A DNA stretch of 64,000 bases from contig OY740784.1 in the NCBI GenBank assembly GCA_963514005.1, positions 94,054,001 to 94,118,000 on the forward strand, read 5' to 3'. This document shows positions 4,639 through 62,596 of this stretch, piece after piece (the stretch's first letter is position 1; each line of letters starts with the position of its first letter). The notes under the pieces were generated by a model. It saw only the letters and a list, made by a program, of their open reading frames with translations. It was not told where the DNA came from and did no database searches. A program made the translations under genes and the position numbers. This stretch comes from Raja brachyura (lineage: Eukaryota).

Positions 4639-4785
<147 letters not shown>

Positions 4786-39192: not shown

Positions 39193-39480
39193 GGGGTGGT
39201 TTAGTGGCGCAGTGGCTGAATTGTTTCCTTATGATGTCAGAGACATGGGTTTGATCCTGACTACAGGTGCTGTTTGTACTGAGTTTGAACGTACACTCTC
39301 TTAGTGCTCAGGTCTCCTCCAACATTCCACACACATGCAAGTTTGTAGGTTAATTTGCTTTTGTAAATTGCCTCTACTTTGCAGCATACGGTATGGGTGC
39401 TCGTTGGTTGACCTGGACTCGGTAGGCCAAAAGGTCTGTTTCCATGCTGTGCCTCTAAACTAAACTAAACTAAACTAAAG
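39193..39480 (+). mobile_element. HE1-type SINE with a (taaac)n tail
   Basis: Homologous to 24085-24398, with degenerate A and B boxes. Confidence 0.8.
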
Positions 39481-39612
39481 TCTTCTTCTTTCGTGTGGCG
39501 TGCCTAAAGTTGTAGGACAGCTTATTCTATATGATCTTCTGTTTGTGCACGTCGAGTTAATTGCATTAGTCGAAACAGGGCGGACCACGTGAAGGTTGCA
39601 ATCTTCCACCCC
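39481..39612 (-). mobile_element. 132-bp non-autonomous retroposon with a ribozyme head and a (GAA)n tail
   Basis: TSD taaactaaag at 39471-39480 and 39613-39622. Minus-strand 3' end ...cacgaaagaagaaga. Confidence 0.85.
39560..39612 (-). ncRNA. Minimal HDV-like (CPEB3-type) self-cleaving ribozyme, predicted
   Basis: GGGGUGG(P1) AAG AUUGCA(P2) ACC(P3) UUCACGU(L3) GGU(P3') CCGCCCU(P1') GU UUCGA CUAA(J4/2) UGCAAU(P2'). All three helices pair fully, with a G1-U wobble at the cleavage site. Confidence 0.82.
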
Positions 39613-39696
39613 TAAACTAAAGTGTGGTGTCATCAATGACTTTGACTGTTGCACCATGATGCTTACAACTCAATACTCTTCACAATGAAGGCAAGT

Positions 39697-40730
39697 ACAG
39701 GGACAGGATGGATTCGCAGATGGAGCAACGGGATACCAGACGCCTATGGCAGGGACTACGGACTATAACAAATTACCAGTGCAGCCCCCCTCAACCAGTA
39801 GTGCCGGCGCCTCATTAGCCGATGACCTGAACTCTAATTATGCACGATTTGAGGCGGGCAACAACACCCCTAGCTTGCCGGCTAACAATTTTGTCAGCTG
39901 ACTGGATAGCGAGGCTGGAGTGAGGCACATGACTGGGGATGTGTACAAGTTCTTGGTGTCCAAGCACGATGGAGGAGGGCTCTGACGCGTGTGAACACGA
40001 GGAAAGCTGTAGGCCCAGATGGTATATCTGGGCGAGTACTAAAGTCTTGTGCTAATCAGCTATCTCCAGTGTTCACCACAATATTCAACCTCTTCTTGTC
40101 CAAGACCGTGGTCCCTGCCTGCTTCAAGAGATCCACTATTGTACCAGTGCCTAAGAATGCCTCTCCAGCCTGCTTGAATGACAACTGACCGATGGCCCTC
40201 CCCTCAGTGGTCATGAAATGCATCAAGAGGCTGATCAAGACTACATCTGCACCTTCCTTCCTCGCACAATGGATCCGCTGCAGTTCGCATACCATCCAAA
40301 CAGATGATGCAGTCTCCCAGATTTAGCACACCACTCTCTCACCTTGACATCCAGAAGGGGGGCTATGTGAGGATGCTGTTCATTGACTTCAGTTCAGCTT
40401 TCAACACCATAGTCCCCACCAGACTTCCTGAGAAGCTGCTGGAACTGGAACTGAACACTCCCCTGTGTGCTTGGATCATGGGCGTTCTCACCGCCAGGTC
40501 CCAGGTGGTCAAAATGGGGAAACATACCTCCAACGCCCTCATCCCGAACACAGGATCCCCCCAGGGTTGTGTTCTCAGCCCCCTATTGTACTCCCTGTAC
40601 ACACGTGACTGTGTGGCCAGGTTCAGCTCCAACTCCACCATCAAGTTTGCTAATGACACGGTGGTGATGGGCCTGTTCTCCGATAACGATGAGAAGGCCT
40701 ACCTGGAGGAGGTGGCTGACCTGGCACTCT
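39697..40730 (+). mobile_element. Rex1/Babar LINE RT fragment
   Basis: [54 protein letters not shown]. Confidence 0.9.
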
Positions 40731-47620: not shown

Positions 47621-47728
47621 TGGATGACTTCTGCTGTTACTGGATGTACCAACAATTACTGCACCTGGGATTTGTCATGAATGTCTGAATCATCATTCTG
47701 AGCACGAATGGGAACAATGGCTGTGTAG

Positions 47729-47815
47729 TAATGGCCCCTAGATAAGGGACATATCAGATATTAACTGATAAGAACAGATACTACACTTGAACTTAGCCAA
47801 AGGCCGAGAAGCAAT
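47729..47815 (-). pseudogene. RNU2: U2 snRNA 5' fragment (about nt 1-88), retrocopy
   Basis: Minus strand ATTGCTTCTCGGCCTTTGGCTAAGTTCAAGTGTAGTATCTGTTCTTATCAGTTAATATCTGATATGTCC matches the U2 5' end, including the branch-pairing GTAGTA. No Sm site. Confidence 0.93.
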
Positions 47816-53098: not shown

Positions 53099-56000
53099 GT
53101 CACGGGGAAACAGGCACAACAGATGCAATAGGTGCAACAGGCACAGCCAGCGGACAACCTCTATGCTGGGGTTGAGCCACTACCACCGGGTTATCGACAT
53201 CCAGATGGGCGGGCTTGAGGCGAGCCACGGAAATAATCTCCTCCCGACTCCCGACATCCAACAGAAAAGTTGTGACGCTGAGCTGCAACACCCGGAAAGG
53301 ACCCTCATAAGTCCGCTGCAGCAGAGTCTGGTACGAGTCCCTGCGAATCAACACAGACAGGCAGTCCTTAACCCCATGTCGAGAGGTTGGAACAGGAGCC
53401 AGGCCGCCCACTTTCTCCTGGAGATTCGCCAACACAGACGAAGCGGGCTCCTGCTGCCCCCGACCTGCAGGTAGGAAATCCCCAGGCACCCGCAGCGGGG
53501 CGCTATACACGAGCTCAGCGGACGACATGTCCAAATCTGTCTTCGGGGCCATGCGGATCCCCAGCAACACCCAAGGCAATTGGTCCACCCAGTCCGGGCC
53601 CGCAGGCTGCGCCTTCAGTGCCGACTTCAAATGCACATGGAAACTTTGACCAAACCGTTGGCCTGAGGATCATAGGCGGTGGGGTGATGCAGCTGCATCC
53701 CATACAGCTGTTCCAGAGCCAACCACAAAGCCAAAGGAAACTGTTAGTGGAGATGTCCGCAGGTACACTAAAACGAGCCACCCAGTGGGCCGCGAGGGCC
53801 AGAGCACAAGACGCGGTGGAGGTGTCAAAGAGTGGAATGGCCTCTGGCCACTTCGTAGCACCGCGAGACATTGTTAGGACGCGGCTTCCCAGTGGAAATG
53901 TCACAGACGACCGTCACACCTGTAGGACCGAACGGAACATTGGCCAATACCAATCCCGACGCTGCAGTCCAATAGGCATCCATCTCACCACCCTCACATT
54001 GCGCAGCAGCCAGCCCAGAATAGTCCATGCCCAGGTCCACGGAAAATACGGCAAGGGACTGCAGGGCAAGACAAAGCATTCGCGACCAGGTTCAGCTTGC
54101 CCCCCACGTGCTGGTCATCGGTGGTGTACTCGGAGACAAACCCCAGGTGCCGCTGTTGCCGAGCTGGCCAGGGGTCGGACACCTTTGTAAACGCAAACTT
54201 TAGGGGCTTGTGGTCCGTGAACACCGTGAAAGGCTTGCTCTCGAGGAAATGACGGACCACCAAATAAAGGGCCAGGAGCTCTCAATTAAACGTGCCGTAT
54301 GCTCTGCTCCCGAGGACGCAGGTGTCGGCTGAAAAAAGCAAGCAGTTGCCAGCATCTGTGACAGCGGTATCGGAGGCATCCACGGTGAGGGTGGGAGGAG
54401 CAGCAGCACGTGGGTGCACCAGCATGGTGGCCTTGGACAGCGCCTCCTTAGTACCGTCGAAAGCAGCCGCGTCTCAGCTCATATCCGGGCCGCTGTCTCA
54501 GACATTATCCGGGCCGCCGACACGAAACGATGATAGAAATTCACCATTCACTCCTGTTAGTGAGTGATGGTGAGTGCCGAGGAAACTGCCAAATTGCCCC
54601 CACCTTAGTGGGAAGAGGTGCAGCACCCTGTGAGGTGACATGGTGTCCCAGGAAGGAAATAGAGCGGAGCCCAAACTGACATTTGTCGGGGTTGATAACC
54701 AGCCCTTGATCCTTAAGCTACAGCACCCGTAGGTGCGCGCAGTGTTCCTGGTGGGAGCGGCTGGTGACCAGAATGTCATCCAAGTACACAAACACGAAAT
54801 CCAACCGTCAACCCACCATATCCATGAACCACTGGAAAGCCTGCGTGGCGTTCTTCAACCCGAACGGCAACCGCAGCCACTCAGATAGGCCGAACAGGGT
54901 GATGATGGCGGTCTTGGGCACATCATTGGCGTGGACGTGAATCTGGTGGTAGCCGCGCACCAGATCCACCTTGGAAAAGATGGTAGCACCGTCCAAGTGG
55001 GCCGTGAAGTCCTGAATGTGCGGAACTGGAGAGCGAACCGTAGTCGTGACAGGGTCTCCACCCCCTAGATGATTTAGGGACTATATGTAATGGGGATGCC
55101 CATGGGCTGCTTGAGCGCTGCACAATCCCCATGTCCTCCATTTGTCGACACTCCTCCTTGGCGAGACGTAGCTTGTCGGGCGGGTGCCTGCACATCCGTG
55201 CATGCATTTGGGGGCTGGCAGTAAGAATATGATGGACCACCCCGTGCTTAGGGGTGGCCGTGTGACAACGAAAGGTCAGAAGCTCTGGGAAATCAGCCAG
55301 TATGGGAGCATTTGCCCCGCCCACATCCGTCACAGATCCGAGGTGTGGGTCGGAGGGAACTGCGGCCTGCGGGGGCGCGGGCCAGGGGGACTCCGGAGGA
55401 ACAAGGCACCGGCCCAGCACGTGTACCAGTAGGGAAAAAGCCCCGCAGAAAATCGGCTCCCAGCAATGGCCGGGAAATATCCGCAATAGTAAAGGCGCAC
55501 GAGTAACAGCGGGAGTCGAGGACGAGGGAAAGGGTCCGAGTGCCATAGGTGCGGAGGGGGCTCCCGTTGATGGCGGTGAGGGTGGGGCCATACATACCAG
55601 CACAAGTATTGCGCCCAGATGGAGGAATGATGCTCAGCTCAGCACGAGAAGTCCTTCCTGGTGGACACCGGGGCAGAGCTTATGTCCATCCATAAGAGTG
55701 AGCATCTCACTCATCGGTGCGGACGGCTTAGGATCGCCAAGGCCGTCCATGTGTAACAGGTGGGATGCGCGACCGCAGCGACTGAGCCCGAAAGTGCGGA
55801 GCAGCAGAGCCTTGAGACCTTCGTACTTGCCAAACGCAGGTGGATTTTGTAGGTACGGCAGCAATCGGGTGGCAGTCTCTTGACCGAGCAGCCCCACCAC
55901 GTAGAAATAATAGGCGGCATCCACAACGATGTTGCTGAGTTTGAATTGAGCTTCAATGTGGGCGAACAACACTTGAGGCTGTACCGCCAAGAAAACAGGA

Positions 56001-58014
56001 AGTTTCAGGGCAACCGCGTTTTGCTGGGCGGGCTTGGCGGGCTTTGCGTCGAGGTTTTCGGCGGCATTCATTTTAAAGATCCAAAAAACATTCGGACCTG
56101 CGGGGTCATCACTTTAGCGAGACGGGCAGGTTGAGTTAAATAATTTTTATTGGCAAACAAAAATGATAATTAAACTAAGTACACACGTGCCTCGTCTGCT
56201 AACACTGCAATAGTTCCTGCTGCTGGGCGGCCCTCGTGGTCATGTGATGAAGCCAACCAATGATGAGGGTTCGAACCTCCCCAAACCACCACTAGGTGCC
56301 ACTACGGCATCCTATTTAATGTTTAGCTGTGCTTCAGATCTCATATCTTCTGCATCAAATTCATTGTATTTTTTCAGTCTCCACAATAGTACCCATTTCC
56401 TGTCCTGTCTCTGCCTGATTGCTACTGAAACTTTTATGTATGTTCCTATTTTGCCAGACCACTACTCCAATGCTCTCTCCGCTGGGTGTTCAGCTTCCAT
56501 TCTTCATTAACATGAACGCTTTACTGCTTATATCCTCATTTTCAGCACAATTTGGTTCACCCATCATCTTAGCTGGTTGCTTTGTCTCTAGTTTTTTGTG
56601 GGTCTGAGGTGGCTGGTGAGGCCAATTTTGGAATGACAGACTTTTCAACAGATAGGGGAGGTGATGGGCGAAGGATGCATATGTGGGTAACTTGTCTTCT
56701 GTGCCAGCCAGGTTCAACTGCACATTCATCAATACTTCTGTTTGAGCGTTTTCATCTCGTTCAAATTCTTCCCTAATTTAACTCCTTCCCATCATTGCGG
56801 ATTCCCGAAGCTCAATAAACTTCCAAATTCAAGTGTTCTCCCATGTTATTTTGTCTCCCAATTAGCAGCTGCACCCTCCAGATATCCATGCTATAAATGT
56901 TAGTTATCAGCTAACTGGGCTTCAGTCAGTTAATTCAATGCACGTTTCTTGAAAAAGAAATGTTGGCTCCACCGTGAAAGCATTAACTCAGTTATTTGGA
57001 TCAGTACCCGGTGATTCACGTGACTGTTTCTCATGGCTATTTCTATGTAATGATCATCTTCAGTTTATTCGCATCCATCCATCCATCCATCCACAAACAC
57101 AAAGTTCAACGGCAAATTCTTCAACTTAAATTTTCCTTACAATTGGTTAATCTTTGTTTTAACGTGATTCAAAAGCATTTTTAAAGGGTTATTCAGGCTC
57201 AAGAATGGATTAAGTAGGATTATTGGCTTTTTTTCTGCTGAGCCAAAGTTGACATTTATAATACTAAAAATAATAGGCAATAGAACATAGAAACTGCAAC
57301 ACAATTAATAGGGAAAAGAATCCTTTACAGATGTTCACCATCTTCACTACAGGCCTAAAGCTTTTTAGAATTTAGAATTTATATTAAAGAAAAACATGAT
57401 TATCTTTCATTATGAGAATATCATTGGCTAAATCACCTCTGTGCCCAGAGCTGATTTCTAATGAATATATTATAGGTTGCAAAGATTTTATTGGTTTGAC
57501 CTTTTAAAATGGAGAAACCATGCCTCGTTCATGATTAAGTCTCTGCAGGTTGATTTTGTAGTGCGTTAACACTATTCTCCTTCCTTTGTGCATAGAATTC
57601 TATTGTTATGTGTATTTGTTTTTCAGTACTGTATGAAAGTAAGGGAAAGGCAATTTTCTGCATGCATTCATTCTGAATTAAGGTGATATATTTGGTCATC
57701 GTTGAAATACAGAAATGATTTGCTAAAAGAATGTGACAATCGCAAACTGCTGTTACAAAAGCCTGGGATAAACTGAAATTTTCATTAAGCTGGTTATTGC
57801 TCATTTGCTTCATGTCAAGTACATTTTGAATTAATCATTATGAAAATACATTACAACTATTCATATTATGTTGAAAACATGTTACCACAGATTAATTTTA
57901 CTAATACACTGAGGATTTTATTCTCTGGTCACTCTATTTTTAAAAATTGCATCATGTTTTTGCAGTGAACACATCGATCAATATTATTAATATTTGAGCT
58001 ATTTCGTTGGTTTG

Positions 58015-62290: not shown

Positions 62291-62596
<306 letters not shown>

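What the first reader, a model, noticed from the sequence alone, without database searches (positions are those of the whole stretch)
39481..39612. Ribozyme-headed mini-retroposon: a 53-nt minimal HDV/CPEB3-like ribozyme defines the 5' end of a 132-bp TSD-flanked element
Seen: on the minus strand the insert starts GGGGUGG-AAG-AUUGCA-ACC-UUCACGU-GGU-CCGCCCU-GU-UUCGA-CUAA-UGCAAU. P1 (7 bp, G1-U wobble), P2 (6 bp) and P3 (3 bp) all pair in nested double-pseudoknot order. A candidate catalytic C lies in CUAA just before P2', and P4 is reduced to a 5-nt loop. G1 (39612) abuts the 10-bp TSD taaactaaag, and the element ends in a (GAA)n tail with no tRNA A/B box. Established: L3 UUCACGU and the following GU match the mammalian CPEB3 ribozyme as I recall it, and HDV-like ribozymes process the 5' ends of R2, RTE and Ingi-group non-LTR transcripts. 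Inference: this is a promoter-less SINE-like parasite that cuts itself out of host read-through transcripts and is mobilised by a Vingi/RTE-type LINE. It would be one of the smallest vertebrate HDV-like ribozymes. It lies antisense to the host gene, so it would not cleave the pre-mRNA.
Basis: partly seen in the sequence, partly recalled or inferred. Interest (0 to 1): 0.92.

Follow-up and report, generated by a model that had tools for sequence, protein, structure and literature searches.

The report
Ribozyme-headed mini-retrotransposon in cartilaginous fish
A tiny jumping element, copied about 17,000 times in this fish genome, is built from the two ends of a larger retrotransposon and starts with what looks like an unusually small self-cutting RNA; the design is known from other organisms, but was not found described for this retrotransposon group or in so reduced a form in an animal.

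Summary
39481-39612(-) is one copy of a roughly 137-bp family with about 17,000 copies or more. All 30 copies picked by their tail keep the head. In 21 of them the target-site duplication abuts G1, in 6 it lies within 2 nt. The element is an internally deleted LINE: its first ~75 nt and last ~40 nt match the two ends of a decayed Vingi-type LINE in the same genome (469 3' ends). The head fits the HDV-like fold, with a 7-bp P2 (54 nt) and no P4. Three other Vingi-type families here have the same core with different, compensating helices, and one made its own ~165-bp derivative that also starts at G1. The copy lies antisense in a CCDC102A-like intron. Cleavage is untested, Rfam thresholds are not reached, and 'promoter-less' is unproven (the trypanosome relative is promoter and ribozyme at once). 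The kind is known (R2 SIDEs, NARTc/RIME). Not found in the papers searched: ribozymes on Vingi, and a P4-less HDV-like ribozyme in a vertebrate. Verdict: new variant of a known kind.

The parts
39481..39612 (-). Whole element copy (132 bp; family about 137 bp), type A
39559..39612 (-). Predicted P4-less HDV-like ribozyme, 54 nt; predicted cut just 5' of G1 (39612)
   Evidence: head positions 1-53 identical to the majority of 30 tail-picked copies
39606..39612 (-). P1 5' strand (G1 wobble; one further U.G wobble at pair 5)
   Evidence: P1 pair probabilities 0.79-0.99 with 60 nt of natural flank
39597..39603 (-). P2 5' strand (7 nt)
39584..39596 (-). P3 with the L3 heptamer; L3 equals the Rfam CPEB3 consensus
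39577..39583 (-). P1 3' strand
39570..39576 (-). J1.1/4 (GU; single C-G pair plus U-U as P1.1) and the 5-nt loop in place of P4
   Evidence: CPEB3 P1.1 has one G-C and a U-U pair (PMC4836649, passages)
39566..39569 (-). J4/2 CUAA; candidate catalytic C at 39569
   Evidence: by position only; CUAA in 70 of 82 copies, CGAA in 4
39559..39565 (-). P2 3' strand
39541..39612 (-). Part derived from the 5' end of Vingi-type LINE family C
39521..39540 (-). Short middle part with no direct LINE match; looks like a local duplication of the end of the 5' part (inference)
39481..39520 (-). Part derived from the 3' end of the same LINE, ending in (GAA)n
39471..39480 (+). Target-site duplication, left copy, at the end of a (CTAAA)n tail of an older high-copy repeat
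39613..39622 (+). Target-site duplication, right copy, abutting G1
4663..4779 (+). Host gene exon (CCDC102A-like) upstream of the intron
62354..62563 (+). Next host exon; the element lies antisense in the 57.6-kb intron between the two

Best explanation
The element is a non-autonomous, internally deleted derivative of a Vingi-type LINE: the LINE's first ~75 nt joined to its last ~40 nt (shown by sequence). Its head is a P4-less HDV-like ribozyme (fold and covariation shown, activity inferred). When a copy is transcribed, most simply by read-through from a host promoter (inferred), the ribozyme cuts just before G1 and frees an RNA with an exact 5' end that still carries the ribozyme. The LINE protein recognises the shared 3' end and copies the RNA into DNA by target-primed reverse transcription, which leaves a duplication of about 11 bp and a (GAA)n tail (footprint shown, enzyme assignment inferred). 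Because the RNA is so short, nearly every new copy is full length and keeps the ribozyme, which explains why it outnumbers its LINE about 35-fold. The partner looks long dead, so the family is probably fossil. This copy keeps an intact head but lies antisense to the host gene and would not cut its pre-mRNA.
For: Head 16,721 and tail 16,863 matches, reversed controls 0. 30 of 30 tail-picked copies keep the head; the duplication abuts G1 in 21, is 1-2 nt off in 6, is not found in 3. Hundreds of contigs in four other runs stop matching exactly at 39612 (452, 469, 62, 27). Of 20 long LINE loci, 4 carry both ends in order (L224, L225, L228, L235); L224 starts at G1 with a 12-bp duplication. LINE-specific 3' ends 469, LINE-specific 5' junctions 30. 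LINE pieces hit Pfam endonuclease and RT; relatives are ~1000-aa single ORFs without RNase H. Heads of LINE families A, D and E keep the core with different helices: on a MAFFT alignment of 6 heads, 93.8% of cells pair, 5 of 11 pairs change on both sides, 0 of 500 shuffles reach the covariation score, and slid controls give 46-52%. The four positions that differ within the 54 nt among the LINE, type A and type B (8, 32, 45, 54) are all compatible with the fold. Family E made a second, ~165-bp derivative; its duplication abuts its own G1 in 8 of 14 copies. Single extra bases at the junction are not G-biased (4 G of 13), which weakly favours an uncapped end (cap-derived G is recalled knowledge).
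Against: No cleavage data. Rfam scores are below threshold for this copy and LINE C heads give no match at E<=5. Only 8 of 23 LINE C heads have G at position 1; many are clipped by 3-9 nt or inverted. Vingi-type family B has a head that does not fit the descriptor and family F was incomplete. The strict descriptor found 0 of 20 heads upstream of metagenomic relatives; a relaxed scan of 13 found one full core. The cross-family table was aligned by hand to the structure, few families were compared, and relatedness is not removed by the shuffle control. No intact partner ORF was found among 20 loci (longest Vingi piece 313 aa). Read-through against internal promoter was not tested.
Confidence: 0.8

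Rival explanations
1. Dual head, as in L1Tc/NARTc: the first ~75 nt are both an internal promoter (DNA) and a ribozyme (RNA), so the element does not depend on read-through. This differs from the best explanation only in the source of the transcript.
For: Pr77 of the sister clade Ingi is both (PMC3383444, passages). The element keeps ~20 nt of LINE 5' sequence beyond the ribozyme. Copies are dispersed with no target specificity.
Against: No direct evidence either way; the junction bases give no sign of a cap (4 G of 13; weak).
Confidence: 0.35
2. The P4-less head is a catalytically dead remnant. The 5' end is set by a promoter start, and the fold is kept for protein binding or protection against exonucleases.
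For: Rfam scores are low; P1.1 is a single pair and P2+P3 alone is only -4.6 kcal/mol; post-insertion changes cannot show selection.
Against: The candidate catalytic C and J4/2 pattern are kept in four families with unrelated helices. Natural P4-less HDV-like ribozymes cleave in vitro (10.1101/2023.06.13.544163, passages and section 5). The competing 2-bp hairpin over G37-C44 is unstable (+3.2 kcal/mol). Two independent derivatives start at their own G1.
Confidence: 0.12
3. A classical Pol III SINE with a degenerate tRNA-like head; the ribozyme likeness is chance.
For: A B-box-like stretch at element positions 38-46 matches 7 of 9; size and copy number are SINE-like.
Against: No tRNA or small-RNA match; both boxes need 2 mismatches; the head is the 5' end of a protein-coding LINE; chance level of the fold is 0 in the shuffles.
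Confidence: 0.03

Closest known systems
NARTc / RIME / SIDERs of trypanosomatids (L1Tc/Ingi clade)
   Same: Non-autonomous element made of the first 77 and last 30 nt of its LINE, with an HDV-like ribozyme that cuts before nucleotide +1; dispersed (PMC3383444 passages; PMC4035085 abstract).
   Different: NARTc is 263 nt and its ribozyme has P4; the head is also a shown promoter. Here about 137 nt, no P4, Vingi-type partner, vertebrate host, about 17,000 copies or more.
R2 SIDEs of Drosophila
   Same: 5' ribozyme joined to the 3' end of a LINE, spread in trans (PMC3414825 abstract).
   Different: Site-specific in rDNA and rare; R2 has a different endonuclease and a larger ribozyme.
Non-autonomous derivatives of Vingi-1_EE (hedgehog) and bipartite LINEs in Repbase
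   Same: Vingi is known to make internally deleted derivatives (PMC5786205 passages and section 23).
   Different: That paper lists six ribozyme-bearing clades (R1, R2, R4, RTE, Ingi, LOA), not Vingi, and leaves the ribozyme link as a hypothesis. The original Vingi paper was not held.
Minimal HDV-like and theta ribozymes
   Same: No P4; same core order and catalytic C position.
   Different: Reported from gut metagenomes and phages, beside tRNAs; none found in human, mouse or protist genomes with that motif (10.1101/2023.06.13.544163 section 5). Here in a vertebrate retrotransposon.
Mammalian CPEB3 ribozyme (RF00622)
   Same: Same L3 heptamer and GU, single-pair P1.1.
   Different: Single conserved intronic locus with P4; this copy gives no RF00622 match at E<=10 and has different helices.

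Membership tests
HDV-like ribozymes (structural class) | Nested double pseudoknot: P1 of 7 bp, P2, P3 of 3 bp, P1.1 | tested here: met
   P1.1 is one C-G pair plus U-U
HDV-like ribozymes (structural class) | G at the cleavage site paired at the base of P1, coinciding with the RNA's 5' end | tested here: met
   G1.U36; duplication abuts G1 in 21 of 30 tail-picked copies
HDV-like ribozymes (structural class) | Catalytic C at the start of J4/2 and conserved L3 core | tested here: met
   By position, in families C, A, D, E; single copies of D deviate
HDV-like ribozymes (structural class) | Helices supported by covariation | tested here: met
   Between families; none expected or seen among copies
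HDV-like ribozymes (structural class) | Self-cleavage dependent on the catalytic C and a divalent ion | not testable with these tools
   Needs a bench assay
Rfam RF02682 / RF00094 / RF00622 | Score at the gathering threshold | tested here: not met
   17.3 of 44 bits for RF02682; no RF00094 or RF00622 match at E<=10. Not filed under these families.
CPEB3 ribozyme | Single locus in a CPEB3 intron, with P4 | tested here: not met
   Multi-copy, in a CCDC102A-like intron, no P4
Minimal (P4-less) HDV-like ribozymes | P4 replaced by a short loop | tested here: met
   5 nt
Theta ribozymes | Phage origin, adjacent to a tRNA | tested here: not met
   Vertebrate genome; no tRNA within 39300-39800
Bipartite non-autonomous LINEs (SIDE/NARTc type) | 5' end taken from an autonomous LINE | tested here: met
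Bipartite non-autonomous LINEs (SIDE/NARTc type) | 3' end taken from the same LINE, ORF deleted | tested here: met
   about 20 nt in the middle have no direct match
Bipartite non-autonomous LINEs (SIDE/NARTc type) | Independent spread: dispersed copies with duplications and tail | tested here: met
Bipartite non-autonomous LINEs (SIDE/NARTc type) | Mobilised in trans by that LINE's protein | not testable with these tools
   Inferred from the shared 3' end
Vingi clade (partner LINE) | Compact single ORF with APE endonuclease and RT, no RNase H (PMC13708176 passages) | tested here: met
   Broken pieces hit endonuclease and RT, none RNase H (8 pieces); closest full protein, 65% identical over the piece searched, has the same layout; head to tail about 3.1 kb in L225
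Vingi clade (partner LINE) | Tree position with named Vingi references | not tested
   No named Vingi sequence was available; an Anolis protein of the same layout is 41% identical. Hence 'Vingi-type'.
Classical SINE (tRNA, 5S, 7SL or snRNA head) | Small-RNA-derived head with Pol III boxes | tested here: not met

The most novel reading that the evidence does not exclude
Vingi-type LINE heads are a reservoir of CPEB3-type ribozymes in animals, and the mammalian CPEB3 ribozyme is a domesticated head of this kind. The element shares L3 and GU with CPEB3; family E shares 9 letters in a row over P2 and the start of P3, plus the P2 partner strand (Rfam CPEB3 E 1.6e-4); a metagenomic relative scores E 6.8e-5; and a Vingi trace exists in the human genome (PMC5753468 passages). 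In this fish, thousands of dispersed P4-less ribozymes would be able to cut any host transcript that reads through them in sense, a natural large-scale version of the CPEB3 situation. Both Rfam scores are below the gathering score of 35, and convergence on a constrained core is not excluded.
Probability: 0.2. Interest if true: 0.85.

Novelty: new variant of a known kind. Interest (0 to 1): 0.62.

Why it matters
If it cleaves, it places a P4-less HDV-like ribozyme, a form so far reported from gut metagenomes and phages, in a vertebrate genome with a clear job: defining the 5' end of a retrotransposon. It adds Vingi to the ribozyme-bearing LINE clades and supports the published idea that a 5' ribozyme is what lets a LINE spawn two-ended mini-elements; here that happened at least twice in one genome. 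It marks out a natural minimal template (about 75 + 40 nt) for a clade now used in RNA-based gene insertion (PMC13708176 passages). It also gives two cheap tests: whether sense intronic copies are selected against, and whether the CPEB3 ribozyme descends from such a head.

Tried and rejected
Rfam at gathering threshold found only a U2 piece in the window. Energy folding gives no signal. Most endonuclease hits in the genome were other LINE types with no link to the element: 30 loci of one family and 19 of 20 further regions; only L124 led on. Vingi-type family A shares the core but not the ends, so it is not the partner. Sequencing runs: no RNA holder listed; only contigs could be laid, so starts, strand and expression could not be read, and no empty site was among the joints shown (171 not shown). 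Host gene search: 300 of 512 candidate frames scanned with Pfam. In alignment A1 one row was given on the wrong strand and the P4 region misaligned, so A1 was not used. In A3 MAFFT put family E's P1 one column off, which lowers the counts. The strict descriptor failed on 20 of 20 metagenomic upstream regions and on all 80 loci; Rfam found nothing relevant upstream of L264. Family B and F heads are unresolved. Earlier scan notes: none. Paper searches listed no paper on a Vingi ribozyme or on this family; I judged most hits from the listing only. Ruminski 2011, Kojima 2011 and Riccitelli 2014 were not held, Repbase, Dfam and patents cannot be searched here, and bioRxiv supplements were not seen; any of these may already hold the family or the ribozyme. 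Antisense bias across the genome could not be tested without gene annotation.

Full report
Observation. The element is at 39481-39612 on the minus strand, between two 10-bp direct repeats at 39471-39480 and 39613-39622, and ends in (GAA)n. P2 takes a seventh pair, so the motif is 54 nt with a 2-nt J1/2 and a 5-nt loop in place of P4. A recalled HDV core descriptor, written after I had seen the sequence, matches once in the window, in 0 of 60 shuffles of the window and in 0 of 20,000 shuffles of the head. Rfam is weak: HDV-F-prausnitzii over exactly 39559-39612, 17.3 bits against a threshold of 44, E 0.9. The L3 heptamer and the following GU equal the Rfam CPEB3 consensus printed.

Host. The window lies in a 2.7-Gb genome. 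An exon at 62354-62563 is 93% identical to a ray's CCDC102A-like protein and 80-89% to other rays' and sharks', so the host is a cartilaginous fish. The exon before it is at 4663-4779. The element sits antisense in the 57.6-kb intron, at the end of the (CTAAA)n tail of an older high-copy repeat.

Family. A 37-nt head pattern with up to 3 mismatches has 16,721 matches, a 37-nt tail pattern 16,863, reversed controls 0. These are lower bounds. To avoid bias I took the first 30 exact tail matches: 30 of 30 keep the head, 29 have G at position 1, the duplication abuts G1 in 21, is 1 or 2 nt off in 6 and is not found in 3; 13 of 30 keep every pair and core base, and this window's head equals their majority. 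These copies are biased young. Over all 82 distinct copies held at that point, 76 have a duplication (mode 11 bp), 53 abut G1, and a displaced-flank control scores 4 of 82. A second type with J4/2 CGAA has 4,931 matches. Contigs of four other runs, from four coded organisms, stop matching at 39612 in 452, 469, 62 and 27 cases with unrelated continuations, so the family and its 5' boundary are shared with other species; two of the runs are only guessed to be RNA and show nothing about expression.

Partner. A search with the Pfam endonuclease PF14529, followed through, led to several single-ORF LINE families. In family C the element's head runs straight into a 5' UTR and an endonuclease. Of 20 long family C loci, 9 show the head in order, 11 the tail, and 4 both. 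L224 starts at G1 and has a 12-bp duplication. The element equals LINE positions 1 to about 75 plus the last ~40 nt, with about 20 nt between that look like a local duplication. The LINE has 469 specific 3' ends and 30 specific 5' junctions. Its pieces hit endonuclease and RT (4 of 8 above the curated cut-off). The 75 relatives found include many ~1000-aa single ORFs, and the three scanned have no RNase H. That is the Vingi layout (PMC13708176, passages), but I had no named reference for a tree, so I write Vingi-type. Copies are 81-92% identical to the query copy and no intact ORF was seen, so the partner appears dead. Against a simple picture, only 8 of 23 LINE heads have G at position 1; many are clipped by a few bases, and some lie inverted next to a LINE 3' end.

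Covariation. Copies of one family mutate at random after insertion and cannot show it. Families can. Heads of families A, D and E keep the core and J4/2 pattern while P1 pairs 4-7, most of P2 and one P3 pair change on both sides; they have P4 regions of 16-46 nt (aligned by hand; single copies of D have breaks). On an untouched MAFFT alignment of 6 heads, P1, P3 and P1.1 pair in 93.8% of cells, 5 of 11 pairs change on both sides, 0 of 500 shuffles reach the covariation score, and slid controls give 46-52% (relatedness is not removed). Rfam independently gives family E matches to CPEB3 (E 1.6e-4), HDV-F-prausnitzii and HDV, and family D a match at E 0.0064, all below threshold; LINE C heads give none at E<=5 in 5 loci. 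Within the 54 nt, the LINE, type A and type B differ at positions 8, 32, 45 and 54, all compatible with the fold. Family B's head does not fit and family F's was incomplete. Outside this genome the strict descriptor found 0 of 20 upstream regions; a relaxed scan of 13 found one full P1/P3 core, L335, which Rfam scores E 6.8e-5 for CPEB3, and by eye 7 more show parts of the same head, probably from one organism.

A second case. Family E has 283 heads. 32 of its 40 best matches cover only about the first 110 nt. I fetched 14: they are elements of about 165 bp made of the E head and the E tail; the duplication abuts G1 in 8, is within 3 nt in 2 and is not found in 4. The same design arose at least twice.

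Mechanism. Shown: two-ended LINE origin, exact 5' boundary at the predicted cut, insertion footprint, conserved fold. Inferred: cleavage, read-through as the source of RNA, and copying by the LINE protein. I put the whole at 0.8. The main open branch is a head that is also a promoter, as for Pr77 (PMC3383444, passages). A dead ribozyme is less likely: natural P4-less forms cleave (10.1101/2023.06.13.544163, passages and section 5) and the competing small hairpin is unstable.

Comparison and novelty. Ribozyme-headed, internally deleted LINEs are published: R2 SIDEs (PMC3414825, abstract), NARTc, RIME and SIDERs (PMC3383444, passages; PMC4035085, abstract). Vingi is known to make such derivatives, but the list of ribozyme-bearing clades in PMC5786205 (section 23) omits it. 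Minimal HDV-like ribozymes were described from metagenomes and phages and not found in human, mouse or protist genomes. HDV-like ribozymes are known in lamprey and lancelet (PMC8256844, passages) and in some LINEs and SINEs of metazoans (PMC6765202, passages), so a vertebrate example is not itself new. Ten searches listed nothing on a Vingi ribozyme or this family. Three key papers were not held, and Repbase, Dfam and patents could not be checked. PMC3391268 (passages) gave nothing of use. The claim 'one of the smallest in vertebrates' is plausible but unverified.

Verdict. New variant of a known kind; interest 0.62. The boldest reading left open is that the CPEB3 ribozyme is a domesticated head of this type (0.2).

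Noticed in passing
L344-L357 (short copies), L363 and L182 (long copies): A second ribozyme-headed mini-element, about 165 bp, made from the ends of Vingi-type family E; 283 heads in the genome; its ribozyme keeps P4 and a two-pair P1.1.
   Followed up: yes
L182:927-1019: Family E head shares 9 consecutive letters (P2 and start of P3) and the partner strand with the Rfam CPEB3 consensus; E 1.6e-4, below threshold.
   Followed up: partly
L335:3315-3386; parts in L280, L328, L320/L343, L288, L289, L277: HDV-like head with the CPEB3-type L3 upstream of Vingi-like ORFs in metagenome contigs; P2 differs by a compensating pair between copies.
   Followed up: partly
L124:1058-1147; L178, L179, L189: Vingi-type families A and D also begin with HDV-like folds with P4. 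L124 has a short tandem duplication of its first bases.
   Followed up: partly
L159, L160, L166, L170 (about 230 nt upstream of the endonuclease match): Vingi-type family B has a head with P1- and P3-like pairing but a different loop and no G after P1; possibly a variant fold.
   Followed up: no
L251 and G000:C3:19358710-19358876; L255 and G000:C9:43991080-43991482; L227, L232, L236: LINE C 5' ends lying inverted next to LINE 3' parts, and many 5' pieces ending near LINE position 110; suggests 5' inversions of the twin-priming type (name recalled).
   Followed up: no
L228:502-639, L185:3996-4135: Copies of the mini-element inserted into Vingi-type LINE copies, in L228 into its own partner's 5' region with a duplication.
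   Followed up: no
L221:2452-3033: An uninterrupted ferritin-like reading frame (name recalled) inside a LINE C copy; likely a processed retrocopy.
   Followed up: no
window 47716-47815 (-): Truncated U2 snRNA copy, 83.8 bits; probably a pseudogene.
   Followed up: no
window 53100-56113 (-): Broken LTR-retrotransposon-like pieces: DUF7041, RT, RNase H.
   Followed up: no
window 39660-40730 (+): Broken LINE with an RT match at 40235-40729 right after the element; Rex1-like by recall.
   Followed up: no
window 57538-57834 (-): Weak match to DUF7078 (E 1.5e-4, just under the cut-off), unexplained.
   Followed up: no
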